A stretch of DNA of 64,000 nucleotides, taken from contig CAVTUM010000002.1 in the NCBI GenBank assembly GCA_963737875.1, positions 56,847-120,846 of the forward strand, read 5' to 3'. The notes beneath the pieces were generated by a model that did no database searches, was not told the DNA's origin, and saw only the letters and a program-made list of their open reading frames with translations. Within the stretch, counting starts at the first letter, position 1. The number at the start of each line of letters is the position of its first letter. This DNA is from an uncultured Alphaproteobacteria bacterium. Its GTDB lineage: Bacteria; Pseudomonadota; Alphaproteobacteria; ATCC43930; CGMCC-115725. Shown here piece after piece: positions 9,658 through 59,977 of the stretch. Both the position numbers and the translations under genes were made by a program.

Positions 9658-9734
9658 GCGGGGTTCGGTGGTCGTGTTGCACCGCACACCCGGCAGCTTG
9701 ACGGGAATGTGACAACCTGCCGATAATCGTGGCA

Positions 9735-9855
9735 TCCAAGGGGCGCCCCGGTGAAGGGGCTGAGAGACGCTGGGCTGCCGGTCTTTCCAAGTCGGGTGGC
9801 GCGCGGAAACCCTTTGAACCTGATCCGGGTCGTGCCGGCGTAGGGACAGGAATCG
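9735..9855 (+). promoter_or_regulatory. TPP (thiamine pyrophosphate) riboswitch, THI element
   Basis: GGGGCGCCC...GCUGAGAG...ACCCUUUGAACCUGAUCCGGGUCGUGCCGGCGUAGGGA matches the conserved THI-box core (CUGAGA, ACCYUUGAACCUGAUCYGGNUAAUGCCNGCGUAGGGA); located ~75 nt upstream of thiC. Confidence 0.85.
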
Positions 9856-9928
9856 CTTCGGCGAGCGCCGATCCCCCACATCGCGAGCGACCCGGGTCCT
9901 CGGTCCAACCGGTGCCACGGAGGCGTCC

Positions 9929-11793
<1,865 letters not shown>

Positions 11794-37253: not shown

Positions 37254-38483
37254 CTATTTTTCGGCAGCCGAGTACGGGTATTTCAGGGAGCCGGTCTTCA
37301 GAGCGGGTGGGTCGAGGATGACCTGCACGCCGGGCTTGGCGAACTGGTCGAGGTCGTGGCCTTTCACGCCCTGGTACTGGATCGTCAGGATGCGAGGCTC
37401 GGCCCATTCCCCGTCCGGTCCGAACTTGATGCCGCCCATGATCGTCTTGAACTCGGTCGCGTGCATGTATTGCGCGAGCTTGTCCTGATCGATCGATTTC
37501 GTGCCCTCGACCGCCTGCTCCAATACCTGGAAGGTGGCGTAGACCAGCGGCGGTACGTAATAGCCGAGCGGGTCGGTGCCAGCGTCTTTGGCGCGCGCCT
37601 GGTATTCCTTGATGAAGTCGCCGACGCCAGGGAAATTCATCGTCGGCTCGTGGACGAACAGCTCGTAATCGACGATGCCGTTCAACCGCTCGCCCATCTG
37701 CGATTTGATCGCGCCGTATTGCAGCCCGATGATCGGGCCGCCGAACATCTTGGCCTCGAGCCCCTGTTCTCCGACCGAACGCAGGATGCCGGCGCTGTCG
37801 GCCGGGTATGAGGCGACAAACACCAGGTCGGGGCTGGTCGCCTTGATGGCGCGCACGATCGGGCTGTAGTCGATCGTGTTCGGCGGGTAATTCTTGTCGT
37901 AGACGATCTGCAGCCCGGCCTTTTTGGCGTGTTCGCGCGCCCCGGCCATCGCATTCTTGGAGAACTCGGCGTCGGCGCCGGTCATCGCCAGAGTCTTCGG
38001 CTTCGGATCGATTGACATCGCGGCGGCGAAATAGCCGGCGGTGATCGCTTCCTTGCCCTTCGGGCCGTATGGCATGGTCTGGAAGAAGCGCGGGTAGTGG
38101 AATTCGTCATTGACCGCCAGCGCCAGAGTGTCGAGCACCATGACGTTATGTTCGATCAGCATCGGCATCGCCGCGGCGCTGAAATTGGTGCCCGATGCGA
38201 TGACCAGGTCGATCTTGTCGACATCGAGCAGCTTCGTATAGATGCCTGGCACCAGCGCCGGATTGCTCTGGTCGTCGTAATGGATCAGCTCGACCTTGCG
38301 CCCGAGCAGCCCGCCTTTCGCGTTCACCTGGTCGGCCCAGATCTGCGCCGTCAGGACAAACTGCTTGCCGCTCGCCGCGCTGCCGCCGGTTTCCTCGGCG
38401 CTGAACCCGATCTTGATCGGCGGCTCCGCCGCAACCGCCGGCAGCGACAGCGGCAAGCAGCAAGCCTGCGCCCAGCATTTTTC
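37254..38483 (-). CDS. ABC transporter substrate-binding protein, branched-chain amino acid (LivK) family; frameshift in signal-peptide region (~38425)
   Basis: [20 protein letters not shown]…|[57 protein letters not shown]… Peripla_BP_6 pattern. Confidence 0.85.
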
Positions 38484-38589
38484 TGATACGCATTAACAAC
38501 TCCTAAAACATGACCGTTCCAACGCGGCTCCGCGTCAGATCGAGTCCCGGTTGCCATCAGACTTTGCATTTGCTTCGGTACACTTCCTC

Positions 38590-39582
38590 TTAGATGAACA
38601 CGCCCTTCATCCGCCTGCGGGGTAGCGGGTGCCGGCGGCGGCGCCGACCGGGATGACCGATCGCGATCGCCTCGGTCTCTTCCGGGGTCAGCGTGATGTC
38701 GAGGGCGCCGAGATTCTCCTGGAGGCGGGAGAGCTGCTTGGTGCCGGGGATCGGCAGCACGTCGTCGCCTTGCGCCAAGAGCCAGGCGAGGCAAAGCTGT
38801 GCGACGGTGCAGCGCCGGTCGGCGGCGATTGCTTCGAGGCCTTCGACAAACACCCGGTTTTTCGAGAAATTGTCGCCCTGAAAGCGCGGGTGCCGGCCGC
38901 GCGTGTCGCCGGCGGCGAGATTGTTGAAGTCGGGCACGGCGCCGGCCAGGAGGCTGCGGCCGAGCGGCGCGTAGGCGACAAAGGAAATGCCGAGATCGCG
39001 GGTCACGGCCCGCGTCTCGCTCCGCCTCCTCGCGGTAGAGCAGCGAAAATTCGCTCTGCACCGCGGCGATCGGATGCACCTTGTGCGCCGCCTGGATGCG
39101 CTCGGGCTTGGCCTCGCACAGCCCGATAAAGCGCACCTTGCCCTGCTCGACGAGCCGCGCCATCCCGCCGACCGTTTCCTCGACCGGCACCGTCGGATCG
39201 ACGCGGTGCTGGTAATAGAGGTCGATATGATCGGTATCGAGCCGCTTCAGGCTCGCTTCGCAGGCCTGCTTGGACGTATTCGGGGCGGCCGTTGACGCCG
39301 TTGGCGCCGCCCGGCTGCTGCGTCTGGCCGAATTTGCTGGCCAGCATCGACCTTGTCGCGCCGCCCTTTCAGCGCCCGGCCGAGCAATTCCTCGTTCTGG
39401 CCCCAGCCATACATATCGGAGCTGTCGAGGTGATTGACCCCGAGGTCGATCGCCTGGTGCACCAATGCGATGCCCGCCGCATCCTCGCTCGGCCCATATG
39501 TGCCCGACAGCGACATGCAGCCGAGGCCGATTGCGGTGACTTCCGGTCCGTTTTTGCCCACCCGACGCTTGCCTGCCGCCAT
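38590..39582 (-). pseudogene. Aldo/keto reductase, at least 3 frameshifts
   Basis: [31 protein letters not shown]…[26 protein letters not shown]|VLASKFGQ…GRPEYVQA|[52 protein letters not shown]…|[17 protein letters not shown]…[22 protein letters not shown]. Confidence 0.8.
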
Positions 39583-39702
39583 CTATCGCCTCCCGTTGGT
39601 GCTGCCGCAGCATAGCGGCCACCGGCGCGGCCCGCGAGTTTTTGTGACAATTCGCTGGCGCGCGCTATGATCGCATCACAAGTTTCGACCGAGGAGGGAG
39701 CG

Positions 39703-46119: not shown

Positions 46120-46740
46120 TCAGCCGAACGGGTTGAGCGCCTTCAGGCGGGCCGACCAGCCATGCCGGCCAAGCTCGCGCCGCACCACCGCCATATCCGT
46201 CACCCAGTTCAGCTGCAGCACGCGACGCAAGCCGCGGTGCGGGTAATGGCCGTGAAACGACGCCTCACTGCGGCGGAATGCGACCATCGTGCCAGCCACC
46301 GGCGGCACCTCCACGGCATAGTCATCAAGGTCCCTGGCGCTGCGCAGAACCCGCAGCCGCCCCCCCGCCGCATCCCACCCGTCATTGAGGTAGAGCAGCA
46401 CAGTAATCAGCTTGGTCGACGAATCGGTATGGATGCGGCCGTCCTTGCCGTCGCTCTGGCCGCGCACCGTGATCATCGTCGGACGCCCGTCGAGGTCGAT
46501 CGTGAACTTGCCCTCGATCGCCCGGCGCAGAGCGTCACCTTCGAGTTCCTCGGCCAGTGCTGTAAAGGAGGCGCCGCCCGATAGTGAGGTCAACGGGTAG
46601 CTGCCGTGGCCGGCCACCGCCGGATAATCAGCGAACAAGGCGGGCAGGTGCTCGCGGTTGAGGAACCCCTCGACGATCACATAATCATAGGGGTCGCTGC
46701 GCAGCGGCGCGGCCCGCAACCGGTCCAAGTCGAGAATCAT
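46120..46740 (-). CDS. 2OG-Fe(II) oxygenase family protein
   Basis: MILDLDRLRAAPLRSDPYDYVIVEGFLNREHLP…GRIHTDSSTKLITVLLYLNDGWDAAGGRLRVL…HGHYP (HxD…H). Confidence 0.6.
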   Translation of the reverse strand: MILDLDRLRAAPLRSDPYDYVIVEGFLNREHLPALFADYPAVAGHGSYPLTSLSGGASFTALAEELEGDALRRAIEGKFTIDLDGRPTMITVRGQSDGKDGRIHTDSSTKLITVLLYLNDGWDAAGGRLRVLRSARDLDDYAVEVPPVAGTMVAFRRSEASFHGHYPHRGLRRVLQLNWVTDMAVVRRELGRHGWSARLKALNPFG

Positions 46741-46915
46741 GCGCGGCCCTGCCCGTGATGGCGCCCAAAGCGCGCCATCGTATCGCGGTGAGGGGTGTCG
46801 GCAACACCCGGTTTGGATCGCGCGGCGACACGCCATTTCCGCTCGCCCGCGGCTCGCCGCTGAGCTAGAGGTAGCGCGCCGCGCGAACGGCATTCCGCAA
46901 CCGTCGGATAGGGTC

Positions 46916-48660
46916 ATGGAACAGCGCTGGGGTGTGCCCCTGATCGCCTGGCCGTCGCGCTTGCGCCCCAATTACTGGGACCTGATCGCGCTGCCGATGG
47001 TGATCGGCCTGATTGCCCTGGTTGCCTGGGGCGGCATGGCGATGGGCGCGCATTACCAGATCGGCGACGCCCTGCCGATCTCGCTCGACCCCCGGCGCCT
47101 GCCGGAATACGCGCTGCGCACGGTATTGCGCATGGCGCTGGCGCTGGTCGCCTCGCTGTGGTTCAGCCTCGCCTATGCCGCCGTGGCGGCGAAAAGCCGG
47201 ACGGCCGAGAAGATCATGATCCCGGTGCTCGACATCCTGCAATCGGTGCCGATCCTCGGGTTTCTGTCGATCACGGTGACCGGCTTTATCGCCCTGTTTC
47301 CCGGCCGGCTGCTCGGCGTCGAATGCGCCGCGATCTTCGCGATCTTTACCTCGCAGGCGTGGAACATGACGTTCAGCCTGTACCAGTCGCTGCGCACCGT
47401 GCCGGGCGAACTGATCGAGGCGGCGCGCATGTACCACCTGACGTCCTGGCAGCGCTTTTGGCGGCTCGAAGTGCCGCACGCGGTGCCGGGGCTGGTGTGG
47501 AACATGATGATGTCGGTCTCGGGCGGCTGGTTCTTCGTCGTCGCCTCCGAGGCGATCACGGTATCCGGCCAGTCGATCATGCTGCCCGGCATCGGCTCCT
47601 ATATCGCGACGGCCATCGCCGAGCGCGACCTCGCCGCGATCTTCTATGCCGTGCTGGTGATGCTGGTCGTCATCCTGCTGTACGACCAGCTGCTATTCCG
47701 TCCGCTCCTCGCTTGGTCCCGCAAGTTCCGCGGCGATGATGCCAGTGACGAGGAGGACAACCCGCGCCCGTGGTTTCTGATCGTGCTGCAGCGCGCCCGC
47801 GTTTTCGACCTGCTGCAGGTGGCGGTGCGGCGGGTGAACCTGGTGTTCGACTACGGCTTGTCGGCGGTCGGGCGCAGCCTGCCCCGGCGCCGCCGGGCGC
47901 CGCGGCCGCACGCGACATGGGTCGAGCGCGGCTTCGACGTCGTCCTGCTTGCTGCTGGCCGGCGCATCCGTCGTATGGATCGTGCGCTTTGTGCTGGAGA
48001 CGGTCTCGCTCGGCGAAATCGGCTGGACCTTCGTGCTCGGCGCGATCACCGCGGTGCGGGTGCTGGTGCTGATCGGGTCGGCGTCGGTGATCTGGGTGCC
48101 GATCGGGGTGTGGATCGGGCTGCGCCCGCGCATCGCCGACAAGGCGCAGCCGATCGTGCAGTTCCTCGCCGCCTTTCCGGCCAATTTGTTCTTCCCGGTC
48201 GCGGTCGTGCTGATCCTGCAAATTCAGCCTCAACCCGCAGATCTGGCTGAGCCCGCTGATGATCCTCGGGACGCAGTGGTACATCCTGTTCAACGTGATC
48301 GGCGGCGCCACGGCATTGCCGACGGAATTGCGGCTGGCGGCGAGCAATCTCGGCGTGCGGCGCTGGCTGTGGTGGCGTCGGGTGATCCTGCCGGCGATCT
48401 TCCCGGCCTATGTGACCGGCGCGGTGACCGCGGCCGGCGGCTCGTGGAACGCCAGCATCGTCTCCGAGGTCGTGCAGTGGGGCGACACGACGCTCAGCGC
48501 CACCGGCATCGGCGCTTACATCACCAAATACACCGCCGAGGGCGACGCCGCCCGCATCACCCTCGGAATCGGCGTGCTGTGTCTTTATGTTCTAGCCTTC
48601 AACCGCCTGCTGTGGCGCCGCCTCTACGAACTCGCCGCCGAACGGCTGCGCCTCGATTGA
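46916..48660 (+). CDS. Fused tandem ABC transporter permease (two NitT/TauT-type BPD_transp_1 domains), 2 frameshifts (~47950, ~48225)
   Basis: First domain …EAARMYHLTSWQRFWRLEVPHAVPGLVW…; second domain …RLAASNLGVRRWLWWRRVILPAIFPAYVTGAV… (EAA-like loops) in three ORF pieces. Confidence 0.75.
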
Positions 48661-48892: not shown

Positions 48893-50164
48893 GTGGAACC
48901 CGGAGGGTGCTTAGTGGCTGATATAGCGCTGCTTTTTCAGGCTGACGATCCGCGGCTTCGCACGACGGTCGGGGTACGTGACGGTGAAACGATCGTGTTG
49001 AGCAACTCCGCGGCCGGGATCGGGCTCTATGGTCCATACGTCGATCTGCCGAGCGGCCGGTATCGCGCAAGGATCCGCTTCGCGGAAGCCCACGAAACGG
49101 CCGGCTCCGTCACCATGGATGTCTGTGAAGAGGCCGCGACAAAGATCATCAGTGCGGCCGAATTTGATCTCTCCAATCTGGCGCCGGGGAAGCGCGAAAT
49201 AGAACTGGCCTTTTCGCTCGATCGAGCCGCATCGCTGTGTGAAGTCCGGCTGTTCTGCGCCGCGGCGGTATCCGCGACGATCACCCGTATCGAGATTTTG
49301 TTTCTTGATTTCGAGGCGTCACTGGTTGGCTGGCTGGACCGCCTGGAGCGTCTTACGCACGGCGGACGAGCCACTTACGTCGGGAACAATCGCATCCTGG
49401 CAAGACTGGTCGTCGGAGACACGATCTTCGCCTTCCTGATGCCTGCCAATGATCTGCTAATCGTGCCGGCGACGATTGCACGCGGCGAGTATGAACCGGC
49501 GTTGACGCGGTATTTTACGCGGACCGTTGCGGGCACGGACCATTGCCTGGATGTCGGCGCAAACTACGGCTATTATACTTGTCTGATGGCGAGCCTCACG
49601 CCGGGTGGCAAGGTTCTCGGGATCGAGCCTGATGAGGCGATTTTCGCGTTGATGCGCGATAATCTTTACATAAATACCTTAGAACCGAGTGCGAAGGCGC
49701 TGCATGCCGCCGTGGCCGATCGCTCCGGACGATTGACGTTGCATCGCCGGTCGACCCGTTCCGGCAACACCAGCATCATCAAGTACACAAGTGACTATAC
49801 CGCCAGCGCCGGGGAACAGGCGGCGATGCCATTTGAGGTGGAATGCTTTGCGATCGATGATCTGTTGCCGCGTTTTGATGGCCGGATTGACATCGCCAAG
49901 ATCGATGTCGAAGGTGCGGAACCGCTGGTATTCCGCGGCGCTCGGCGAACAATTCACGAAAACCCGCAGATCAGGATAGTCATGGAATGGTCGCCTGGTC
50001 AGATTCGTGCAGCGGGTTTCGACGTAGGCGAATTTGTCACCGAGCTTACGAGTTTGCGGCTCGATGCCGCCATCATCGGTTCCGCCGGACCGGAGCCGGT
50101 TGCGTTAGCCGATCTCAGCCACACTTCTTACCATTCAGGCATTCTGCTCACGCCGAGATCATAA
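48893..50164 (+). CDS. FkbM-family methyltransferase with ~180-aa N-terminal domain of unknown function
   Basis: C-terminal 240 aa: DVGANYGYYTCLMASLTPGGKVLGIEPDEAIFALMRDNLYIN…IAKIDVEGAEPLVFRGAR (Methyltransf_21/FkbM). Start codon uncertain (possible GTG at 48914). Confidence 0.8.
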   Translation: MEPGGCLVADIALLFQADDPRLRTTVGVRDGETIVLSNSAAGIGLYGPYVDLPSGRYRARIRFAEAHETAGSVTMDVCEEAATKIISAAEFDLSNLAPGKREIELAFSLDRAASLCEVRLFCAAAVSATITRIEILFLDFEASLVGWLDRLERLTHGGRATYVGNNRILARLVVGDTIFAFLMPANDLLIVPATIARGEYEPALTRYFTRTVAGTDHCLDVGANYGYYTCLMASLTPGGKVLGIEPDEAIFALMRDNLYINTLEPSAKALHAAVADRSGRLTLHRRSTRSGNTSIIKYTSDYTASAGEQAAMPFEVECFAIDDLLPRFDGRIDIAKIDVEGAEPLVFRGARRTIHENPQIRIVMEWSPGQIRAAGFDVGEFVTELTSLRLDAAIIGSAGPEPVALADLSHTSYHSGILLTPRS

Positions 50165-50217
50165 TCTTCGCTAACACGTCACGGGCGTCCCCTATAATCA
50201 TCTGTTGCGTATCGCAG

Positions 50218-53200
50218 TTACGCCGACGTCCACTCAGCGGCACGTTCAAACACCACAGTGCTTGCCGGATCCTCATATTCCAAGACATAGGACTGCAAGC
50301 AGATCTGAAGGCCGGCATCAACCGAGAGCGTGAACTCGACACCGTCTTCAGCTCGTTCAATGACGAACTCCGTGTCCAGCAAGCAGCCGCTGGACGGGTT
50401 CACCCCCCAACTTAGCGTAACTTCATGTAGTACTTTCTCACCCTGGTTACTTGTCACGCGCAGATGCGCGCGTCCAGCTTCAATCCCCTCGCTGGTTCCG
50501 AAGCCGCGCAGACGGTGCGGACCGGGGGTGATACCTATATAGGGCCCGAAGGTCAGCACGCCCTCACGCCCGGTGGATTGGATATATCCATTGGCGTCAA
50601 AGCAACCGACCCGCGTCCTGAGCATTCCATCCTGCGAGCGGAACTGCCGCCGCTGTCGGGGAAAGTCAATATCAGGCCCGGTTTTCTGGCCGCGATGCAC
50701 GTCAAACTGGTGATGCAGGTGGAGCGAATAGAGCATATCGAAAAGCCGCCTCGACGATCGCTCGTAGGACGCTGCCGAAGAGATACCAGTCGCGCGGTCG
50801 ACCGCCGCTGTGACACGCGGGGCATGAGTTTCAAGTTCGACGACGAGAGCGGCGATCCCCACCGCCAAATCGCGGGCGCTACAGCCCGGCAGACGCAGAA
50901 CGGCGTCTTCGAGTTCGTCAAACACGGGGAGTGGCGTCACCGCTACCGGAACGCCTGAAACCAGGCAGAGGCGCGCCGCGCCGCTCGCGGAATTGCCGGT
51001 GCTGGGCTGGTAGGGCAACACAATCAGGTCGGCCTCGCGCAAATTGGCGAGGCTCTCATCATCCGTGAGGAAGTCGTTGATCAACGTCACCCGGTCCTGC
51101 ACACCCAGGGAGACGGCGAGTTCCCTGGCTCTCTGGATTAGATCACTGGACACAGGCTCGGGGTATTCCGCATTGACCAATAGGAGATGACCATCGAAAC
51201 CAGCTTCGGACATCAGAGCAAAGGCTTCGATCAGCTCAATCAGGCCTTTGTGTGGAAGAAAAAAGCCGTAACTTGCGATGACTCGCCGCGCGCCGAAGCG
51301 GCGGCGATCTCGGCGGGATGCGGCCAAGTCCGACCTATGGCTTGGATAAGGATGCGGGAACAACGTGACGTTTTCGACGACACCCATATCCTTCAAGCGG
51401 TTCATGTCCGCGATTGAATGCACCAGCACTCTTGAACACCGCGCCAGGAGGGGAGCGATGATTGCCAGTCGCTTAGTCTCGTCCGGATCGTTTTCGTGCG
51501 TTGCGTGGGTTACAAAAATGACGATACGGCCCTGTTTGATCAATTCTTCGATAAAGGTTCGTAGTTCGTGGAAAATAAAGAACGCGTAGTTGAATTGGAT
51601 AACGACAACATCACACGCTGCGGTCGAAATATCGGACAGAAGTCGGTTGAGGCTGCCGTCTGAGCGTGTCCAGTTTCGGGTTACGTTAGGCTCGTCATAC
51701 ATTTCCCGTTCGTCACTAAATGGAGCGAAGATGCGAACATCGGTGCGATTTTCTAAAAGATATTTCGAGTAGGAGGCAACGCCGCAACGAATGTTCCATG
51801 TCGTCACCCAGGCAACTTTCATGTCTGGGCATTGCCAGTCGGCAAAGCTGATGAGGTCCGCGACGTATTGTTGCAGCCGCCAGGCGACATGATCCCACGA
51901 GAAGGACGCTCGAAGGGTATCGATGGCTGCCGTGGTTCGCCGCTGGATCTCCCTTCGCGGCGCGCTGCGGACCTGTCGCATCACGGCAGCCAAATGATCG
52001 ACGCTGGGCTCAGCCCAGACTGATCCTGGCAGGTTGAAATGGCTTCTGGCGCGCGCGAATTTGAAGTCGACGAGCCAGGCCGTCTCGTCACTGCAGAAGT
52101 CAAGATTGCCGCTCCAACCCGTGGCAATTACGGGCAGCCCGTGCACCATCGCTTCCGCCGCAGGCAGGCCGAATCCTTCTGCCCTGCTTGGAGCGACAAG
52201 GGCATGGCACTGGAGGTAGAGCGCATTGATTTCAGCGTCGGACAAATCATCATCAATCAAGACGACATCCGGGTAATCGATATCCTCTGCCTGGAGACGG
52301 GCCAGATCTTCGGCCACGGTGTTGTGCGGATTGGGGGCGGTTTTTATGATGAGCGATACGTCTTCCTGGCGGCGAAATGCCTTGCCATAAGCCGTTAACA
52401 GGCAGTCGACCCCCTTGCGCGGCAGGCACGACGAGATGTGCAGGAAACGATATGCCTTAGCCTGGATGCGGAAATTTGAATTTGGCCGGACCCGATCCCA
52501 GTGATCAATTCCATTGCCTGTCACCGACGTAGGCAGTCGAATCCCATGGTCGATCATCACCTTCTGAACGTGTCGTGACAGACACGTGAGGCCGTTCAAG
52601 CCCGTATTGAAATCGTCCAGCCACTGTTGCGGGAAACCGGCTTCCTCCCAGGCGTAATGATGGAACAGATTAATCGCTCCATTCATCCGTGTGACCCTTG
52701 GCGGATAAACAAGGCGGCTGACGACGGTGAATTCGGCGTCGGCGTCGGCGTCGCGTCCGCGGCTGTGCAAGCGCGCGATGTCGGGAGTTCGGCTTAAGAA
52801 CTCGGGATCAGGGTCGAAGTCGCCTGGTCCTTCCGTCGAAAACAACGATGTATCGACCCCCTGACGGTTTAGGGCCCGAGCGGTTTCCCGATTGACCAGC
52901 GCGAGGCTGTAGCTGGAGTTGAATGGCCCCTCCACACGCCATGTCGGTCGAACAAGCGCCGTAGACGTGGCGTGGGCCGTCGCAGTATCGAGATTGGTCT
53001 GGAGCAGCATACCAGTCGCTGTTCTGCCAGCCTCGTCGACGTCATATTGATCGAGAACCGCTGAGACCGAGCCGACGGCACGAATATACGCGAAATGGGG
53101 CAGGCTCGCGGCGATCAGAGGATGACGCGCCGCCCGCTGTGACAATCGCTGCTCCAGGTTGTCGATTAACCGACTCGCCGTTCGATCCCAGGAAAACTCC

Positions 53201-54345
53201 CGCGCCCGGGCCAGGCCAAACGCAACGATTTCGGCCCGATAGTCAGGTTGCTCCAGCACGAAGAGTATCTTATCGCACAGCTTGACAGCATTATCAGGGT
53301 CGAAGAGCAGGTCCGATCGGCCGACGACCTCCGGCAGACTTGTCCGATCCGATGACAATACCACTGCACCGGACGCCATCGCCTCCAGCACCGGCAGCCC
53401 AAATCCTTCGCTGAACGAAGGAAATATGAATATCACACAATTTCTATACAGAGCGCGCAGCTGAGGTTCTGAAAGGAAGTCTGTAAAGACAAACTTGTTC
53501 TTATGGTCGATCCCTAAATCATCCGCAAGGCGTTGCATTCGCTCGTGATCTGTCAGATTTATTTTTCCGACAAATACGATCTTTAACTTCGTTTTGTGTG
53601 TTTCCGGCAACAGCGAAAATGCACGGACGATGATTTCTGGGTTTTTTCTAGGTTCAAGCGATCCAACGTATAGTAAATATCCTTCGTGTATCCCCATGCG
53701 TAAGAGTAATTCATCATCATTTTGGTTGTGATCTTCTTTTTCTAAAGTGTATTCCGATGCGGCCGAAATATTACAAACATTATGTGCGGAAAACTCTCTG
53801 ACAATGCATTTTTCTGTGTATTCGGAATTAGAAAAGATAAGATCGCAATCGAGCAATTGGCGAAGTTTTTCTAAATACCATGAGCTGGCGACATCATTGC
53901 CAATATAGAGATGACGATCGTAGAAGGGGATCAGGTCATGGGCAATTACGCAATTTTCGTAAACGGAATTGCGGAACGATGACGATACGATGTCATCGTC
54001 GAACCCTTCGATGATGGACGGATTGAGCACGAAATCGGGCCGCAGCAGCGCAAGGCTATACCCCCTGATATGTTCCGAGACCTTTCTTTTCCAGGTGTTG
54101 GCGAGATTGGAGAAATTGATCTTATCAAAAACAGAGAAAACAAAAAAACGATTTGCCGGAAGCAGATCCAAAAAGTAGGCCCGGATCTCGTCCACCTCTG
54201 CCTTTGACTGGTTTCTTACGGCAATCCAGATTTCGTGATCCCCTCGATTGCGCAGCACTGCACGGGTCAATGAACTTGCATATCGGCCTATCCCTCTAAA
54301 TTTGCTTAGTCCTTGGATGGCTTGTAGATCAATGAGGAGCCGCAT
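50218..54345 (-). CDS. Multidomain glycosyltransferase: three GT4 (GT-B, EX7E) modules plus C-terminal ~170-aa non-catalytic domain
   Basis: 1375 aa intact; three repeats of GT4 C-terminal motif (…FIFPSFSEGFGLPVLEAMASG…; …LVAPSRAEGFGLPAAEAMVHGLPVI…; …LIVLPYQPSTGNSASGAARLCLVSGVPV…). Start codon overlaps stop of upstream gene by 17 nt. Confidence 0.85.
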   Translation of the reverse strand: MRLLIDLQAIQGLSKFRGIGRYASSLTRAVLRNRGDHEIWIAVRNQSKAEVDEIRAYFLDLLPANRFFVFSVFDKINFSNLANTWKRKVSEHIRGYSLALLRPDFVLNPSIIEGFDDDIVSSSFRNSVYENCVIAHDLIPFYDRHLYIGNDVASSWYLEKLRQLLDCDLIFSNSEYTEKCIVREFSAHNVCNISAASEYTLEKEDHNQNDDELLLRMGIHEGYLLYVGSLEPRKNPEIIVRAFSLLPETHKTKLKIVFVGKINLTDHERMQRLADDLGIDHKNKFVFTDFLSEPQLRALYRNCVIFIFPSFSEGFGLPVLEAMASGAVVLSSDRTSLPEVVGRSDLLFDPDNAVKLCDKILFVLEQPDYRAEIVAFGLARAREFSWDRTASRLIDNLEQRLSQRAARHPLIAASLPHFAYIRAVGSVSAVLDQYDVDEAGRTATGMLLQTNLDTATAHATSTALVRPTWRVEGPFNSSYSLALVNRETARALNRQGVDTSLFSTEGPGDFDPDPEFLSRTPDIARLHSRGRDADADAEFTVVSRLVYPPRVTRMNGAINLFHHYAWEEAGFPQQWLDDFNTGLNGLTCLSRHVQKVMIDHGIRLPTSVTGNGIDHWDRVRPNSNFRIQAKAYRFLHISSCLPRKGVDCLLTAYGKAFRRQEDVSLIIKTAPNPHNTVAEDLARLQAEDIDYPDVVLIDDDLSDAEINALYLQCHALVAPSRAEGFGLPAAEAMVHGLPVIATGWSGNLDFCSDETAWLVDFKFARARSHFNLPGSVWAEPSVDHLAAVMRQVRSAPRREIQRRTTAAIDTLRASFSWDHVAWRLQQYVADLISFADWQCPDMKVAWVTTWNIRCGVASYSKYLLENRTDVRIFAPFSDEREMYDEPNVTRNWTRSDGSLNRLLSDISTAACDVVVIQFNYAFFIFHELRTFIEELIKQGRIVIFVTHATHENDPDETKRLAIIAPLLARCSRVLVHSIADMNRLKDMGVVENVTLFPHPYPSHRSDLAASRRDRRRFGARRVIASYGFFLPHKGLIELIEAFALMSEAGFDGHLLLVNAEYPEPVSSDLIQRARELAVSLGVQDRVTLINDFLTDDESLANLREADLIVLPYQPSTGNSASGAARLCLVSGVPVAVTPLPVFDELEDAVLRLPGCSARDLAVGIAALVVELETHAPRVTAAVDRATGISSAASYERSSRRLFDMLYSLHLHHQFDVHRGQKTGPDIDFPRQRRQFRSQDGMLRTRVGCFDANGYIQSTGREGVLTFGPYIGITPGPHRLRGFGTSEGIEAGRAHLRVTSNQGEKVLHEVTLSWGVNPSSGCLLDTEFVIERAEDGVEFTLSVDAGLQICLQSYVLEYEDPASTVVFERAAEWTSA

Positions 54346-56719
54346 CCTTAAATTCTTTCGTGCTGGATGGTGGTCTCTCGATGCGTGCCCATCGAACCGG
54401 GACAGCGAGAGTCATATCGCGCAAAATCAGGTTTCTCCGCACCAGCGGATCGTCTTCGGCCAATGCGTGGCCCGGAAAGACAAGCTGCCCCAGGAGGGAA
54501 TGTCCGCGGGGCTTGACAGCTCCTTTTGTCATTGGGGCGGCGGGGCTCTCCAATCGGGTGTCGGTCGGACTGTCGTGGGGCGAACAATCGGGGGGCGAAC
54601 TGTCAGCGGAGAGCCCCTCCTTATCGCGAATTACCTCCATCACATAAGCGAGATGGTGAGCAGCATCGGGATGGTCCGGCGATAATATCAAGCCCCGGCG
54701 GTACGCGAGCGCTGCCTTCGCCAGCGCTCCGCACTCTTTGTATGCATGGCCATATTGTACCCAAAGACGCGGCTGATGGTTGGGCTTGACGGTCAGAAGG
54801 GCGCCGTAAAGCTCAACAGCTTCCACCCAATCGCGTCGTTTGGCGGCCGTCTGGGCCTGCCTCAACATCCGCCTCCAATAGATCATCTGGAATGGCGGGA
54901 GCCTTAGGAGTTGCGGGACCTTCACATCCGCAGGCTTCCAGGCGCATGCTTCTTCCCAGGCCGCGGCCTCTAACAAGGCCTGGTCCCGCTCTGTCCTGAT
55001 TGCCGTCTCTCGCTGCACGCTCGCCCGGCGCTCGTCTTCCACGCGGGCTAATTCCTCTCCCGACCGTGCCAATGCGGCGGCCAAGGCTTCGTTCCGCCGG
55101 GCCGCCTGCCGCACCTCCTCGTCGAGCGCCGCTTCAGCCTCGCGTGTGGCCTGACATTCCGCGTCCGACCGAACCAAGGCGACGGCCAGAGCTTCATTCC
55201 GCTCGGCCGCCTTTTGCAGTTGCGTCGTCAGCATGGCCTCGGCCTCGCGCACGGCCTGACATTCCGCGTCCAACCGAACCAAGGCGACGGCCAGAGCTTC
55301 ATTCCGCCCGGCCGCCTTTTGCAGTTGCGTCGTCAGCACGGCCTCGGCCTCGCGCACGGCCTGACATTCCGCGTCCAACCGGGCCAGTGCGGCGGCCAGA
55401 GCTTCATTCCACTCGGCCGCCTCCTGAAGCTGCGCTGTCAGCGCGACCTCAGCCTCGCGCGCGGCCTGACATTCCGCGTCCGACCGGGCCAATGCGGCGG
55501 CCAGCGCTTCATTCCGCCCGGCCGTCTCCTGAAACTGCGCTGTCAGCGCGGCCTCGGCCTCGCGCACGGCCTGACATTCCGCGTCCGACCGGACCAACGC
55601 GACGGCCAGAGCTTCATTCCGCCCGGCCGTCTCCTGAAGCTGCGTTGTCACCGCGGCCTCGGCCTCGCGCGCGGCCTGACATTCCGCGTCCGACCCGGCC
55701 AACGCGGCGGCCAGAGCTACATTCCGCCCGGCCGCCTCCTGAAGCTGCGTTGTCACCGCGGCCTCGGCCTCGCGCGCGGCCTGACATTCCGCGTCCGACC
55801 GGGCCAATGCGGCGGCCAGAGCTTCATTCCGCCCGGCCGTCTCCCGAAGCTGCGTTGTCAGCGCGGCCTCGCCCTGTACGGCTGCCGCGCGTGCTCCGTC
55901 GGATTGCGCCAACGCGTCTTCAAGGGGCCGCAGCCGCGCCTGCAGCGTTGGAACCGCAAAATTGTCGAAAACACAGGGCGGCGCGGCAAAGATGTCGCGC
56001 CGCCAGGCTTCCTCGCCACTGACATAGAACCGGTTCAAGCCATCGAAAAGGACAAAGATGTAATTCTTGGCGAGCAGCTGCGGTTCCCAGCTCTGGTGAT
56101 TGGCAATCTGCGTATTCGGCTCGGTCGCTTCCACGACGATGATGCGGGGGCGATGTACGGTGAAGCTGGCAGGATTAAGGATATCGGCTTCCATTCCCTC
56201 GGCATCGATCTTCAAGAAGTCGACCGTGTTGTTCCCGACAAGGCCAAACAGTTGATCGAGCGTCACCCCGGGAACTGGGATGATCCTCCGGGGGATCGAA
56301 GGTTCACCGCTGATGCCACCTGTTACCCCGGAAGACAGGCCGGTGCCCTCGATAACCGTAAACAGGCAGGTCTCCCCGCTCGCTCCTACCACGCACTGCA
56401 AATTGGTATCCCGGGTCCGGGCCCGTTCGAGTTCGGTGAAATACTGAGGGTTGGGTTCAACATTGATGCCATGCCAACCGGTGTCGTAGAACCACGCGGT
56501 CACGGAATCGTGTATCGGATGCCAAGCCCCAATATCGATGTAAAACCCCTGCTCGATTTCCTGCAAGGCGCGGCGTAGGATGACATCTTCAAAGTTCTGG
56601 GCATAGCTCACCATGCCCGTCAGATAGCCGCTGGCATCCGCTCGTACGCGCGGAGAGAGGTGAAAGTTATTTGTTTGTCGCTGAAGGCAGCCGACATCCA
56701 CCTCTATATCATCACTCAC
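54329..56719 (-). CDS. FkbM-family methyltransferase fused to 8x35-aa coiled-coil repeat array and TPR-like region (candidate glycan chain terminator / molecular ruler)
   Basis: 796 aa; N-terminal FkbM domain (…FYIDIGAWHPIHDSV…FLKIDAEGMEADIL…), then AECQAAREAEAAVTTQLQEAAGRNEALAAALARSD x8, then TPR-like helices, Ser/Pro-rich tail. Confidence 0.8.
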   Translation of the reverse strand: MSDDIEVDVGCLQRQTNNFHLSPRVRADASGYLTGMVSYAQNFEDVILRRALQEIEQGFYIDIGAWHPIHDSVTAWFYDTGWHGINVEPNPQYFTELERARTRDTNLQCVVGASGETCLFTVIEGTGLSSGVTGGISGEPSIPRRIIPVPGVTLDQLFGLVGNNTVDFLKIDAEGMEADILNPASFTVHRPRIIVVEATEPNTQIANHQSWEPQLLAKNYIFVLFDGLNRFYVSGEEAWRRDIFAAPPCVFDNFAVPTLQARLRPLEDALAQSDGARAAAVQGEAALTTQLRETAGRNEALAAALARSDAECQAAREAEAAVTTQLQEAAGRNVALAAALAGSDAECQAAREAEAAVTTQLQETAGRNEALAVALVRSDAECQAVREAEAALTAQFQETAGRNEALAAALARSDAECQAAREAEVALTAQLQEAAEWNEALAAALARLDAECQAVREAEAVLTTQLQKAAGRNEALAVALVRLDAECQAVREAEAMLTTQLQKAAERNEALAVALVRSDAECQATREAEAALDEEVRQAARRNEALAAALARSGEELARVEDERRASVQRETAIRTERDQALLEAAAWEEACAWKPADVKVPQLLRLPPFQMIYWRRMLRQAQTAAKRRDWVEAVELYGALLTVKPNHQPRLWVQYGHAYKECGALAKAALAYRRGLILSPDHPDAAHHLAYVMEVIRDKEGLSADSSPPDCSPHDSPTDTRLESPAAPMTKGAVKPRGHSLLGQLVFPGHALAEDDPLVRRNLILRDMTLAVPVRWARIERPPSSTKEFKDAAPH
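55040..55900. repeat. Coding tandem repeat, ~8 copies of a 105-bp unit (within the methyltransferase-coiled-coil gene)
   Basis: Near-identical units GGCCTGACATTCCGCGTCCGACCGGGCCAATGCGGCGGCCAGAGCTTCATTCCGCCCGGCCGTCTCCTGAAGCTGCGTTGTCAGCGCGGCCTCGGCCTCGCGC…; unit starts seen at ~55148, 55252, 55357, 55462, 55568 etc. Confidence 0.8.
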
Positions 56720-57292
56720 CTCTGTCTCCTAATGCGGCGATCGTAGAAATCGAAACTTCGTCCGCGGCGAACCTTCATCTCCAGGGATGGTTTTAGGCAA
56801 GATGTGAGCCGGTTCGAGTTTGCTTGGAGCGCTCCATAGTGGGCGACGTCAAACGTTCCAGTATGCGAGGCCGAAATCGGCGTGACGTGCGGGCTGACCG
56901 TAGGTGCGCCACGAGCCATAGCCTGGCCTCCGGCGTCTCGTGGGCGGAGATCGTGTTCAGCCGGCGCGTCGCTGTCAATCATTGAGAGAGCGAGGAAGTC
57001 GGGTGCGCTCGCACCGCATCCACTCGCCGATCAACCCTGCCGTCCGGAATGTACAGTACGCCGAACAGGGTGGTCGTGCCGCGTCACTTTAGTCGTGCAT
57101 CATCGTGACCCGTGCAGTTTTGCTTGTTCACTCTTCCCACCGCGGCTGCAACTGCCGGCGAACGCACCCGCCGGCGCTCAATACCACGATCCGAGACCGC
57201 CACCTTCTGCGCCGTGTAGCGGTCCCGGATCAGCCTCCACGCCAACTCACGGCTGTCCGGCTCAGGCTCGCGCGGAGCACCATGCTCCGGCC

Positions 57293-59153
57293 TTATCGTG
57301 CGTCAGCATGGTCCGCGAAGTGTTCAACGGACCGGGAGCCCAGAACCACTCGCTCCGGAGGAAGAATCACGGTTGCGGTAGTGCCAGCGCCGAGTTTGCT
57401 GCTAAGCGCAAGCCGACCGCCGTGCAGTTCCACAATTTTCTTGGCTAGCGGCAGCCCCAACCCCGTACCTTGATGATGTCGATTCAACGAGGAATTGACC
57501 TGCTCAAACGGCTTTAGCACGCGACTGAGATCATGTAAGGCAATACCCATTCCCGTATCAGAAACGGTCAGCGCCAAACCAAATAATGGATCGAACCGGC
57601 TTGAGACCGTGATCCTTCCCCCGGCCGGAGTGAACTTGACGGAGTTGACGATCAGGTTGATCAGTACCTGTTTGATCTTGCGTTCATCGCCGCGCAGCAA
57701 CATTGGATCGTCACCTAGGGAAACGTCCTGAAAGAGCCCTGCCTCACGAATAGGCCCGGCGGTCAGCTCAGCAACTGACTGCATGACTTTGCGTAGATCA
57801 AACACGCTCTCGTTAAGCTCAATCTGGCCGGCAGCAGCCTTCGAGAAATCGAGAATATCGTTGATAATCCCCAAAAGAAGCATGCCACTGCCATGAATGT
57901 CACCGATAAATCCCTGGTATTCCCGGTTTCCAACCGGCCCCAGCTCTTCACGCAGAATCATCTCAGAGAAGCCGATAATTGCATTCAGTGGCGTGCGCAG
58001 TTCGTGGCTCATTGTCGCCAAAAAATCCGATTTGGCCTGGTTGGCCACCTCGGCCTCATCTTTGGCGAGGCGTAACGCCTCATAGGCTTCCTCGCGGTCC
58101 CGTAGTGAGTCTCTGACTTGAACAAGAGCGACCTGCTCACGGCGGGCTCGCCGGAGCGCGATCAGGCATAGCAGCAGAAGCCCAAACGCGGCCGCCGCGC
58201 CGATTACAATATAACCCCTTATCGTGGTCAACCATTCCAGCAGTACCGATGCTTCGGTTCGGCTTACGGTAACATAGACCGGGTAATCGGCGACCCGTCG
58301 ATAGGCGATAATCTGCCCGCTGCGATCCAACAGCGAGCCTGTAACGATCAAGCCGCCCTGCGATCCCCCTGTCGTAATTCCTTCAGCCAGCGGACTGGAT
58401 CGCTGCAAGATTGGCGCGTCCGCAGTATCATCGTCGGGATAACGCGCAAGTCTGGTGCCGTCCTCCCTGAAAATTCCGGCCGTATAATTTGCGGGACCGC
58501 CGAGAAGAGAATTGTAGAAAGAGGCTAAATACTTTCCGGAGACCGCGACGATGGTAATTCCACGAAACTGGCCCTCTGGGCCCTCACGCCGGCGCGTCAC
58601 CGTGAAATAGGGGCGAAAACGATCTTGATCGAGGCTGCGCGCGCGCAATGCCCAAACAAAGGTTTGCAAATTGGTGTTCTGCAACGCCCGAAAATCGGCT
58701 CGGTCCGAGTGATCGAGATTGTGGTCGACCGGGTAAACTTTGGCGCTGACGAGTTCTCGTCCATTGGCATCCAGAACCCAGGCCGCCGCAACCTGCGGCA
58801 GACTCTTTAATCTGCTGAGCGAGCTGCTCATGCAGCGTCTGTTCCTGGTTGTGAACTTCCTGATCACTTAAGCGGGACAGCAGATCGTTAATGCGCGCGG
58901 CAACGAGCTGGTGCGTATCCAGCACCTTGATCGTATTTTCAGCGGCGACAGCAACCGTTTCGACAAGTGAGTCTTTCGCCGCAACAAGATGATTTTGATA
59001 AGATAAATAGCCGCCAGCAGCCGCAAAACACAGCGGCGCCACGATTATGCTAACGAGGAGAAGCCGGAGCATCCGAATTGCACCAGAAGGTGCCAATTGC
59101 TTAAGCATCGCCGCCGCAGGACTGGTTTCGGTTAGATGATCTCGCACATTCAA
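57293..59153 (-). CDS. Sensor histidine kinase (two TM helices, periplasmic sensor domain, HisKA, HATPase_c); one +1 frameshift near 58815
   Basis: H-box SDFLATMSHELRTPLNAI, N/G boxes (…LINLIVNSVKFTP…DTGMGI…GTGLGLPLAKKIVELHGG); N-terminal TM + sensor part is in ORF 58584..59153. Confidence 0.8.
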
Positions 59154-59287
59154 GCCTTTTGCGAGTCACCATTTCGGTTGGAACATTTAGGGAACTACTA
59201 CCTCTTTGGAAACGATCGGCAAACTTCGCGGCAACCTATATGATTGGCGCGATTAATGGACATACCTTCCTGGCGGGCGGATCGGCA

Positions 59288-59977
59288 ATGTTTGAAAGGC
59301 GGCTGATAGGGACGGTTGGCCTAACCACGCTGCTCTTAACAAGCTGCGGTGGAGGGGGCAACCACCTGGCCAATACGACACGCTCCGAACTTCTCGCCCT
59401 GCATCAAACCGGGCGCCCCGTGCTCGATTGCCGGGAGGCTTGTCTCTCGGAGTGGCGCAGTGTTCAGCCGGAGGCGATGAAACTCGACGCAAATGGGCAA
59501 TGGAGCGACCTCGCCGTCCTGGTGATGCGAACCGGCTACCAGGATGATCTCTCGCTCTATTACCTTGGCAGGGCAGCGGAGGGCATGAAATTTTTTGTCG
59601 CGGCCGGCAGTTACTATCGGCAAAGCATGCAGCTTTCGGGCACATCAATATCCTGTGAAAACCTCAGCCGGCTGTGTGGCGGCGTGAGTCTGCCGGCGGC
59701 CGCCGAACAGCACCTGGTCGCTACTGACAGCGTGCTTGACGCCGCCAAGCCGCGACGTCCTCGCCCCAGCACCGCACGCATCATTCCGCCAACCTTGCCG
59801 GAGCCAGATCAGGTCGGTGCGCCTGTCGTGCCAGCCGCACATGAGTCAACGTCGCCATCGGCCGTGAGCCCCGCCGCCGGGCAAGTGGAAACACCTCCTT
59901 CACCGGCCCAGGGTCAACCCGAGCCGAGTTCCCGGCCGGACACCGATTACATCGAGCCTCCGCCGGCAACGCACTGA
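59288..59977 (+). CDS. Hypothetical lipoprotein with Pro-rich C-terminal tail
   Basis: Lipobox in MFERRLIGTVGLTTLLLTSCGGG; C-terminus PEPDQVGAPVVPAAHESTSPSAVSPAAGQVETPPSPAQGQPEPS. Confidence 0.5.
   Translation: MFERRLIGTVGLTTLLLTSCGGGGNHLANTTRSELLALHQTGRPVLDCREACLSEWRSVQPEAMKLDANGQWSDLAVLVMRTGYQDDLSLYYLGRAAEGMKFFVAAGSYYRQSMQLSGTSISCENLSRLCGGVSLPAAAEQHLVATDSVLDAAKPRRPRPSTARIIPPTLPEPDQVGAPVVPAAHESTSPSAVSPAAGQVETPPSPAQGQPEPSSRPDTDYIEPPPATH

What the first reader, a model, noticed from the sequence alone, without database searches (positions are those of the whole stretch)
55040..55900. Eight near-perfect 105-bp tandem repeats encode the coiled-coil: a built-in length-variable module
DNA-level identity between units is very high: whole 105-bp units repeat with only a few substitutions. 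This implies recent expansion or ongoing unequal recombination. Each unit adds 35 aa, about 5 nm of coiled-coil. If the protein is a molecular ruler, copy-number change would shift glycan chain length in discrete steps, which would be an evolvable or phase-variable surface trait. Assemblies of long exact repeats are also error-prone, so copy number here may be wrong.
Basis: seen in the sequence. Interest (0 to 1): 0.6.

Follow-up and report, generated by a model that had tools for sequence, protein, structure and literature searches.

The report
Tandem-repeat coiled-coil stalk of glycan-capping methyltransferase
A 105-bp tandem repeat builds most of a roughly 50-nm coiled-coil stalk in a methyltransferase that probably caps growing sugar chains, so it is a likely natural example of the known "molecular ruler" for polysaccharide length, here extended by in-frame duplication.

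Summary
The repeat is real: period 105 bp, 7.8 copies, no indels, at 55060-55875 on the minus strand. It is not near-perfect. Seven good units are 78-95% identical (mean 87%), the longest exact repeat is 65 nt, and one degenerate unit flanks each end.

The array lies in a 796-aa ORF (54329-56719, minus strand). This ORF has an N-terminal FkbM methyltransferase, a helix of about 339 residues in one unbroken heptad register, and a C-terminal TPR-like domain. It overlaps by 17 nt the start of a 1375-aa protein with three GT4 glycosyltransferase modules.

Relatives show the same pairing or a direct MT-stalk-GT fusion. In Azospirillum brasilense the order is wzm, wzt (with Wzt_C), FkbM-MT, 3xGT4. 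That is the layout of the WbdD/WbdA chain-length ruler system. The protein is an analogue of WbdD, not a homologue.

Across the family the stalk length varies (237-559 aa). Independent internal repeats have periods fitting coiled-coil periodicity. Two near-identical alleles differ by exactly one 42-bp unit.

The ruler reading is supported by analogy. Evolvability is supported at family level. Phase variation is not supported, and an assembly artefact is unlikely but unchecked. No wzm/wzt lies in the window and no close relative exists for a copy-number comparison.

The parts
54329..56719 (-). ORF of 796 aa (GTG start): FkbM methyltransferase, then coiled-coil stalk, then TPR-like domain, then a disordered tail. 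This is the putative glycan chain terminator and ruler.
   Evidence: ORF list. Pfam PF05050 scores 81.8 bits against a cutoff of 22.7, and there are weak TPR hits. TIGR01444 scores 63.6 against 37.7. An identical protein, P0001, is in the public collection.
56057..56536 (-). FkbM-type SAM methyltransferase domain (aa 62-221; the conserved region spans aa ~37-254).
   Evidence: Pfam and NCBIfam hits. AF2 pLDDT is about 80-94. Foldseek matches only generic class I O-methyltransferases. Invariant motifs are shared by 22 homologues.
54941..55957 (-). Continuous alpha-helical stalk, aa 255-593 (339 aa, about 50 nm if it is one coiled coil).
   Evidence: AF2 secondary structure gives H255-326 and H334-593; the break is a monomer fold-back. 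One heptad register holds throughout.
55121..55855 (-). Seven well-conserved 105-bp (35-aa, 5-heptad) tandem units, aa 289-533. The consensus is TQLQEAAGRNEALAAALARSDAECQAAREAEAALT.
   Evidence: TRF, unit identity matrix, consensus and variable columns.
55856..55960 (-). Degenerate unit 0 (aa 254-288), 47-54% nt identity to the good units.
55016..55120 (-). Degenerate unit 8 (aa 534-568), 56-61% nt identity. Its first ~22 aa are still recognisable.
54605..54913 (-). TPR-like helical repeat domain (aa 603-705). It is the candidate docking site for the polymerase at the base of the stalk.
   Evidence: Pfam TPR_2 and TPR_14 score just below cutoff. phmmer against PDB hits consensus TPR proteins at 1e-14. 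AF2 pLDDT is 85-94. Foldseek matches TPR structures with TM-scores up to 0.88. The WVQYGHxxKE motif is conserved in the subfamily.
54332..54604 (-). C-terminal tail (aa 706-796). It is predicted disordered, rich in S/P/D/T, and not conserved.
   Evidence: AF2 pLDDT is below 50. Compared with the P0002 tail.
54329..54345 (-). 17-nt overlap between the stop of the methyltransferase gene and the ATG of the glycosyltransferase gene, suggesting translational coupling.
   Evidence: Sequence and ORF coordinates.
50218..54345 (-). 1375-aa protein with three GT4 glycosyltransferase modules plus an unassigned beta-rich C-terminal domain of about 150 aa. This is the putative polymerase.
   Evidence: Pfam Glycos_transf_1, Glyco_trans_1_4, GT4-conflict and Glyco_transf_4 hits. 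The first module is 29% identical (1e-46) to the Azospirillum operon GT. There is no Pfam hit for the last 240 aa.
48893..50164 (+). Second FkbM-family methyltransferase (423 aa; MT domain at aa 220-378), convergent with the GT gene and inside the same low-GC3 island.
   Evidence: Pfam and NCBIfam hits and GC3 profile.

Best explanation
The 105-bp array encodes the central 245 residues (up to 315 with the degenerate units) of a helical coiled-coil stalk of about 339 residues. The stalk separates an N-terminal FkbM-type O-methyltransferase from a C-terminal TPR-like domain.

By analogy with WbdD/WbdA, the TPR base is proposed to hold the co-translated three-module GT4 polymerase at the membrane. 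The stalk would then hold the capping methyltransferase about 50 nm away. Only chains that have grown long enough reach the cap enzyme, are methylated at the non-reducing end, and stop growing. On this model the stalk length sets the modal chain length.

The stalk was lengthened by tandem duplication of a 35-aa (five-heptad) unit. This unit length preserves both the reading frame and the heptad phase. Unequal recombination or slippage between units can add or remove about 5 nm at a time on evolutionary timescales.

Shown: the array, the frame, the heptad register, the domain architecture, the gene coupling, and the family-wide synteny, fusions and length variability. Inferred: methylation of a glycan terminus, the oligomeric state, TPR-polymerase docking, the ruler effect, and which glycan is made.
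For: Array and frame.

Domains. The helix at aa 255-593 and confident MT and TPR domains. The unbroken heptad register.

The 17-nt overlap with a 3xGT4 gene.

Conserved pairing. The MT lies immediately next to a 1000-1380-aa multi-GT4 protein in L002-L007 and in about 20 genome loci. It is fused as MT-coiled coil-GT in about 10 others.

ABC-transporter context in relatives. L005-L007 carry an ABC2_membrane gene two genes away. A. brasilense plasmid p5 has ABC2_membrane, then ABC_tran+Wzt_C (129.8 bits), then the FkbM MT (44% identical MT domain, with a 3x21-aa repeat stalk), then a 3xGT4 protein. gmd and pgm lie nearby.

Literature. An extended coiled coil is 'a characteristic marker' of chain terminators. 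WbdD of serotype O5 adds a methyl cap and pairs with a three-module WbdA. Coiled-coil length determines chain length in WbdD and WbbB (PMC11231755; PMC5082667).

Family variability. Stalks range from 237 to 559 aa. Of 35 members with internal repeats, 34 have periods equal to 0 or 4 mod 7. DNA-level arrays occur in L004 (96 bp x6.1), L014 (63 bp x5.2, 98% matches) and L001 (117 bp x2). The closest relative, P0002, has only three copies of a homologous unit. P0006 and P0009 differ by one exact 42-bp unit and 2 SNPs over 2.3 kb.
Against: - No wzm/wzt, sugar-nucleotide or other polysaccharide genes lie anywhere in the 64-kb window.
- The methyltransferase is not homologous to WbdD. There was no PDB sequence hit and no WbdD among the Foldseek matches.
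- No membrane-anchoring element was identified.
- The a/d core is only moderately hydrophobic (L, A, N, L, L, S, C, A, E, L) and the oligomeric state is unknown.
- No experimental data exist for any FkbM-type member in the literature searched.
- The genome shows many apparent frameshifts, so the locus could be decaying.
Confidence: 0.6

Rival explanations
1. The coiled coil is only an oligomerisation or scaffolding element. The repeats are near-neutral expansions of low-constraint sequence with no length-measuring role, and chain length is set by enzyme stoichiometry or kinetics.
For: Substitutions among units are spread evenly over codon positions (11/10/12). The ratio of non-synonymous to synonymous codon differences is 154:89, which indicates weak constraint on residue identity. 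Stalk length varies more than twofold among relatives with no known phenotype. The literature notes that polymerase:terminator stoichiometry also shapes chain length (PMC11231755).
Against: Repeat periods across the family are almost always commensurate with coiled-coil periodicity (34 of 35). The register here is unbroken over about 350 aa. Both imply selection for an intact, continuous rod rather than for mere oligomerisation, for which about 30-50 aa would suffice. [quoted passage not shown]
Confidence: 0.2
2. The copy number, or the array itself, is an assembly artefact caused by collapse or expansion of a repeat.
For: Tandem repeats are a known assembly hazard. The window shows many apparent frameshifts (split ThiC; truncated amidase, CoA-transferase and permease), so base-level quality is imperfect. 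The reads are not available.
Against: All units differ from one another by 5-23 substitutions, and the longest exact repeat is 65 nt. Identity decays smoothly along the array from 0.95 to 0.78. There are no indels, and the frame is maintained across 2.4 kb with Pfam-supported domains on both sides. The frameshift pattern and the 300-kb contig suggest a long-read assembly, which would span the 0.8-kb array; this is an inference.
Confidence: 0.08
3. The module does not make an exported ABC-transporter-dependent polysaccharide. It instead glycosylates a protein (for example flagellin or another TPR-recognised target) or makes an intracellular methylated glycan, with the stalk serving another purpose.
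For: No exporter lies in the window. TPR domains are used for protein-substrate recognition, and the PDB hits include O-GlcNAc transferase TPRs. FkbM methyltransferases occur in flagellin glycosylation islands (PMC4875605 and PMC5109656, listed). The island carries two methyltransferases and one GT, and its only other ORFs are a histidine kinase and an unassigned ORF.
Against: There are no flagellar or other target genes nearby. Homologous MT-GT pairs sit next to wzm/wzt(Wzt_C), gmd and LPS-core genes in Azospirillum, and next to an ABC-2 permease in Stellaceae MAGs. A three-module GT4 protein is typical of processive repeat-unit polymerases such as WbdA.
Confidence: 0.12
4. The array is a phase-variable contingency locus that switches surface phenotype at high frequency.
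For: It is a tandem repeat inside a surface-glycan gene. 112 of 571 distinct 25-mers in the array recur, so homologous misalignment is possible. A one-unit polymorphism exists in a related gene.
Against: The unit is 105 bp (35 codons), so copy changes never shift the frame and cannot switch the gene on or off. The units are 5-22% diverged. From general knowledge of tandem-repeat instability, such divergence strongly depresses slippage and recombination rates. No population data exist for this locus.
Confidence: 0.05

Closest known systems
WbdD / WbdA of E. coli O9a and O8 (= K. pneumoniae O3 and O5)
   Same: The order of parts matches: an N-terminal chain-capping enzyme, an extended coiled coil, and a C-terminal region that recruits the polymerase. 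The partner is a separate multi-module GT4 polymerase, with three modules as in the O5 WbdA. The O5 terminator adds a methyl cap only. In relatives the operon order is wzm-wzt(Wzt_C)-terminator-polymerase.
   Different: The methyltransferase is FkbM-type (PF05050) and shows no detectable sequence or fold-search relationship to WbdD. There is no kinase domain. The base is a TPR-like domain, not an amphipathic membrane helix. The stalk is about 50 nm against about 20 nm, and it is visibly built from tandem DNA repeats. No wzm/wzt lies in this window.
K. pneumoniae O12 WbbB and O7 ORF6 (single-polypeptide terminator-coiled coil-polymerase)
   Same: Many relatives of this methyltransferase are fused as MT-coiled coil-GT modules in one protein of 1200-1670 aa. 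This is the same format, with the terminator distal to the coiled coil and the GTs proximal.
   Different: Here the two functions are on separate, translationally coupled genes. The catalytic domains are unrelated: a Kdo transferase in WbbB, and a different MT plus kinase with GT2 modules in ORF6.
K. pneumoniae O4 ORF7 (GT137 terminator with a TPR-like bundle plus coiled coil)
   Same: It is a terminator that combines a TPR-like helical bundle with a coiled coil, with the polymerase on separate polypeptides.
   Different: In ORF7 the TPR-like bundle precedes the coiled coil and the catalytic domain is a Kdo transferase. Here the TPR follows the coiled coil.
FkbM-MT of the Azospirillum brasilense MTCC4039 plasmid p5 O-polysaccharide-type operon (WP_137143726.1; annotated only, uncharacterised)
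   Same: The MT domain is 44% identical. It has a coiled-coil tail with its own 3x21-aa tandem repeat and is followed by a 3xGT4 protein whose first module is 29% identical.
   Different: Its tail is short (about 200 aa) and ends in an SWRLTKPLR motif plus a basic hydrophobic C-terminus instead of a TPR. It lies directly downstream of wzm/wzt.
Other length-determining proteins with internal duplications, such as the type III secretion needle ruler YscP and phage tape-measure proteins (from my own knowledge, not tested here)
   Same: The length of the product scales with the length of a helical protein, and natural duplications change that length.
   Different: They use an unrelated mechanism, measuring a protein or tube assembly rather than a glycan, and belong to unrelated families.

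Membership tests
FkbM family methyltransferase (Pfam PF05050 / TIGR01444) | Score above the curated cutoff on the family HMM | tested here: met
   PF05050 scores 81.8 bits (cutoff 22.7) over aa 62-221, covering profile positions 1-172 of 173. TIGR01444 scores 63.6 bits (cutoff 37.7).
WbdD family (homology) | Sequence or fold similarity of the catalytic region to the WbdD methyltransferase/kinase | tested here: not met
   phmmer against all PDB chains at E<=1 returned only TPR and coiled-coil hits. The Foldseek PDB top 50 contains generic class I MTs and TPRs but no WbdD.
Coiled-coil ruler chain terminators (functional class: WbdD, WbbB, ORF6-O7, ORF7-O4) | Extended coiled coil adjoining the terminating catalytic domain | tested here: met
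   AF2 predicts helix at aa 255-593. There is a single heptad register across ten 35-aa blocks.
Coiled-coil ruler chain terminators (functional class) | [quoted passage not shown] | tested here: met
   There is a 17-nt gene overlap with a 3xGT4 protein. Adjacency or fusion occurs in most related loci. Physical interaction was not tested.
Coiled-coil ruler chain terminators (functional class) | Location in an ABC-transporter (Wzm/Wzt) dependent glycan cluster, often with a Wzt_C carbohydrate-binding module | tested here: not met
   No ABC2_membrane or Wzt gene lies in the 64-kb window. The feature is met in relatives: L005-L007 and the A. brasilense p5 plasmid with Wzt_C at 129.8 bits. The rest of the genome was not available.
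Coiled-coil ruler chain terminators (functional class) | Capping of the non-reducing terminus stops polymerisation, and coiled-coil length sets the modal chain length | not testable with these tools
   This needs biochemistry and genetics. It is established for WbdD and WbbB only.
TPR repeat domain | Helix-turn-helix repeats matching TPR profiles or structures | tested here: met
   Pfam TPR_2 scores 26.6 (cutoff 27) and TPR_14 scores 22.1 (cutoff 23.5), both just below cutoff. phmmer hits consensus TPR proteins at 1e-14. AF2 pLDDT is 85-94, and Foldseek TM-scores reach 0.88 against designed TPRs.
Phase-variable contingency repeat | Near-identical short units whose gain or loss switches expression or frame at high frequency | tested here: not met
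   The unit is 105 bp (35 codons) and is always in frame. Units are 78-95% identical and the longest exact repeat is 65 nt. No population data exist.

The most novel reading that the evidence does not exclude
Tandem gain and loss of heptad-commensurate DNA units is a general, still-active mechanism. Through it, a very large and experimentally untouched family of FkbM-type chain terminators (more than 3,400 clusters at 50% identity) would retune polysaccharide chain length in steps of 2-5 nm. This window holds the most expanded array seen in the sample: nine units in a stalk of about 50 nm. That would predict unusually long, tightly sized, O-methyl-capped chains. It would also make natural alleles a ready-made calibration series for the ruler model.
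Probability: 0.35. Interest if true: 0.6.

Novelty: new variant of a known kind. Interest (0 to 1): 0.45.

Why it matters
Coiled-coil rulers that set O-antigen length have been shown experimentally in only two systems, using engineered insertions and deletions. This finding suggests that nature performs the same experiment. The stalk of an unrelated, very widespread FkbM-type terminator family is built and resized by in-frame tandem duplications, and these respect coiled-coil periodicity. If confirmed, it explains how chain length evolves; chain length affects serum resistance, phage access and plant-microbe recognition. It also offers natural allelic series for testing the ruler model, and a simple sequence signature for predicting glycan length classes from genomes: MT, then a repeat-built coiled coil, next to a multi-GT4 protein.

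Tried and rejected
1. Looking for other copies of this array to compare unit number gave nothing.
   - The exact-protein contig look-up found no record.
   - A metagenome scan with a 30-nt unit core found 0 hits.
   - The genome-contig scan found no hit above 56%.
   - The protein searches gave a nearest relative at 49% full length and 66% in the MT domain.
   - Cluster look-up gave no names or organism.
2. Testing WbdD homology by PDB sequence search and Foldseek found none.
3. A search of the whole window for wzm/wzt or sugar-nucleotide genes found none.
4. The structure of the GT C-terminal domain from a single sequence had pLDDT 44.8, so it is unusable and no fold search was run.
5. The promoter/terminator scan of the island gave counts at or below the shuffled expectation. 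No tRNA marks the island.
6. The antisense ORFs across the array (55000-56022 and 55214-56578, + strand) were rejected as artefacts of GC-rich repeats. They have no domain hits, whereas the minus-strand frame links two Pfam-supported domains.
7. SMC hits in NCBIfam (E about 1e-4, far below cutoff) were rejected as generic coiled-coil similarity.
8. The key papers Hagelueken 2015 (PMC4650267) and Mann 2019 are not held. Prior description of FkbM-type or repeat-built rulers could therefore not be fully excluded. Full-text searches found none.
Full report
**Observation**

Tandem Repeats Finder reports one array at 55060-55875 with period 105, 7.8 copies, 89% matches, no indels and score 1161. The repeat finder gives eight in-register copies spaced exactly 105 bp apart.

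The coding strand is the minus strand, in ORF 54329-56719 (796 aa). In codon register there are seven well-conserved 35-aa units, aa 289-533 (55121-55855). One degenerate unit lies on each side.

Pairwise nucleotide identity among the seven good units is 78-95% (mean 87%, or 5-23 differences). It falls with distance along the array, from 0.905 for neighbours to 0.80 at distance six. The four units nearest the methyltransferase are the most alike. Thirty-three of 105 columns vary, spread evenly over codon positions (11/10/12). The longest exact repeat is 65 nt.

'Near-perfect' and 'long exact repeats' are overstated.

**What the ORF is**

Pfam and NCBIfam place an FkbM-family methyltransferase domain at aa 62-221, well above cutoff, and weak TPR hits at aa 650-694.

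AlphaFold2, run with a 22-sequence family alignment, gives:
- a confident methyltransferase fold (pLDDT about 80-94);
- helix from aa 255 to 593, with one fold-back break that is expected for a monomer model;
- a confident TPR-like bundle at aa 603-705 (pLDDT 85-94);
- a disordered tail.

A single heptad register holds in every 35-aa block from aa 255 to 604. The a/d core of the consensus unit is L-A-N-L-L-S-C-A-E-L. A 35-aa unit is exactly five heptads, so each copy adds about 5.2 nm, using about 0.15 nm per residue (my own knowledge). The whole helix is about 50 nm if it forms one continuous coiled coil.

The antisense ORFs across the array are artefacts of GC-rich repeats.

**Context in the window**

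The stop codon of the ORF overlaps by 17 nt the ATG of a 1375-aa protein. That protein has three GT4 glycosyltransferase modules and an unassigned C-terminal domain. A second FkbM methyltransferase lies just beyond it.

These genes, a histidine kinase and one unassigned ORF form an island at about 48.9-59.9 kb. GC3 there is 0.61-0.70, against 0.80-0.90 in the rest of the window. No tRNA flanks the island.

No wzm/wzt, sugar-nucleotide or other polysaccharide genes occur anywhere in the 64 kb.

**Evidence from relatives**

The protein is in the public collection as a singleton, and the next relative is 49% identical. The methyltransferase domain defines a large family, with 3,432 clusters at 50% identity scoring E<=1e-30.

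In metagenome contigs the TPR-bearing relatives sit directly beside multi-GT4 proteins of 1272-1380 aa. Some also have an ABC-2 permease or GDP-mannose dehydratase genes nearby.

Across 80 genome loci, most have the methyltransferase immediately upstream of a multi-GT4 protein of 1000-1300 aa. About ten have the two fused in one protein as MT-coiled coil-GT.

In Azospirillum brasilense plasmid p5 the annotated operon runs in this order:
- an ABC-2 permease;
- an ABC ATPase carrying a Wzt_C module (129.8 bits);
- an FkbM methyltransferase, with a 44% identical domain and a tail containing a 3x21-aa repeat;
- a 3xGT4 protein.

GDP-mannose dehydratase, phosphomannomutase and LPS-core heptose genes lie nearby. 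This is the wzm-wzt-wbdD-wbdA layout.

**Comparison with known systems**

The literature held here makes four relevant statements (PMC11231755; PMC5082667):
- An extended coiled coil is a characteristic marker of chain-terminating enzymes in ABC-transporter-dependent glycan assembly.
- The serotype O5 system uses a methyl cap and a three-module WbdA.
- The coiled-coil length sets chain length in WbdD (about 20 nm) and in WbbB.

The present protein has that architecture. It is not a WbdD homologue. Neither a PDB sequence search nor Foldseek links its methyltransferase to WbdD, and its base is a TPR-like domain rather than an amphipathic helix.

The fused relatives place GT modules exactly where the TPR sits here. 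I take that as indirect support for the TPR being the polymerase dock.

**Is the stalk a length-variable module?**

At family level the answer is yes.
- The distance from the end of the methyltransferase to the first TPR motif ranges from 237 to 559 aa.
- Thirty-five of 140 family tails have detectable internal tandem repeats. Their fundamental periods are 7, 14, 21, 28, 35 or 56 (25 cases), or 11, 18, 32, 39, 53, 60 or 74 (9 cases, all equal to 4 mod 7, meaning heptads plus a hendecad-type stutter). One case has period 33 (3x11).
- Under a uniform null this is P about 1e-17, and 2e-8 for the 14 strongest arrays alone. The cases are not phylogenetically independent. Heptad patterning itself also favours offsets that are multiples of 7 among the weak cases.
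- At DNA level, arrays occur in L004 (96 bp x6.1, plus a 342-bp higher-order repeat), L014 (63 bp x5.2, 98% matches) and L001 (117 bp x2).
- The closest relative, P0002, carries only three copies of a unit that is recognisably homologous to the one here (..AL.RSDAE..), with 39-aa spacing between its two tandem copies. Copy number and period therefore diverged after the two lineages split.
- Two contigs from different metagenome samples differ by 2 substitutions in 2.3 kb and by one exact 42-bp (two-heptad) unit in the stalk. This is direct evidence of unit gain or loss between near-identical alleles. The caveat is that both are short-read assemblies.

**What is not supported**

For this particular array, copy-number polymorphism cannot be assessed, because no close relative exists in any collection searched.

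The units are 5-22% diverged, so the expansion is not very recent. Because the unit is 35 codons, copy changes cannot switch the gene on or off. The array is therefore evolvable, but it is not a phase-variation locus.

Assembly collapse is unlikely because every unit is unique. Reads were not available to confirm this. The window does show many apparent frameshifts: a split ThiC and several truncated genes. This suggests an indel-prone, probably long-read, assembly or a decaying genome.

**Verdict**

The finding is a real tandem-repeat-built coiled-coil stalk in a putative glycan chain-terminating methyltransferase. It is a functional analogue of WbdD from a different, large and uncharacterised FkbM family.

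The ruler interpretation is the best-supported mechanism (confidence about 0.6), but it rests on architecture, synteny and analogy, not on experiment.

It is a new variant of a known kind. Its main interest is that it points to tandem duplication in heptad-commensurate units as the natural route by which such rulers change length.

Noticed in passing
window 9729-11793; 14468-15379; 36063-36935; 38351-39622; 46739-48660: Several housekeeping genes look frameshifted or truncated. ThiC is split into two or three ORFs. A CoA-transferase starts at profile position 113. An amidase covers only profile positions 143-444. An aldo-keto reductase is partial. An ABC permease is split in two. This suggests an indel-prone (long-read?) assembly or a decaying genome.
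   Followed up: partly
window ~48900-59950: A low-GC3 island (0.61-0.70, against 0.80-0.90 elsewhere) holds the two FkbM methyltransferases, the 3xGT4 gene, a histidine kinase (57293-58867, minus strand) and an unassigned ORF (59159-59977). It lies between an ABC importer permease and the suf operon, with no tRNA or integrase. It was probably acquired horizontally.
   Followed up: partly
window 50218-50700 (minus strand; last ~150 aa of the 1375-aa GT): This is a beta-rich C-terminal domain with no Pfam hit. It could be a carbohydrate-binding module on the polymerase. The single-sequence AlphaFold model was too poor to test this (pLDDT 44.8).
   Followed up: partly
L089 (Azospirillum brasilense MTCC4039 plasmid p5) 9984-17143: This is an annotated operon of wzm, wzt(Wzt_C), FkbM-MT and 3xGT4. 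The MT tail has a 3x21-aa tandem repeat, an SWRLTKPLR motif and a basic hydrophobic C-terminus. It is a culturable model in which the ruler hypothesis for this family could be tested.
   Followed up: partly
L087 832-3150 versus L088 52-2328: Two metagenome alleles of a family member differ by 2 SNPs and one exact 42-bp (14-aa, two-heptad) repeat unit in the stalk.
   Followed up: yes
L014 10889-11213; L004 5677-6775: Other family members carry fresher or more complex stalk arrays. L014 has 63 bp x5.2 at 98% matches. L004 has 96 bp x6.1 plus a 342-bp x2 higher-order repeat.
   Followed up: partly
family-wide (P0021, P0051, P0054, P0069, P0079, L089 MT): A conserved S-W-R-[IL]-T-x-P-[LV]-R motif follows the coiled coil in many non-TPR members, including the fused MT-GT proteins. 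Its role is unknown; it might be a junction or a membrane or polymerase contact.
   Followed up: no
window 16166-18136 (minus strand): An adenylate/guanylate cyclase domain is fused to a long TPR array (656 aa). It is unrelated to the finding.
   Followed up: no
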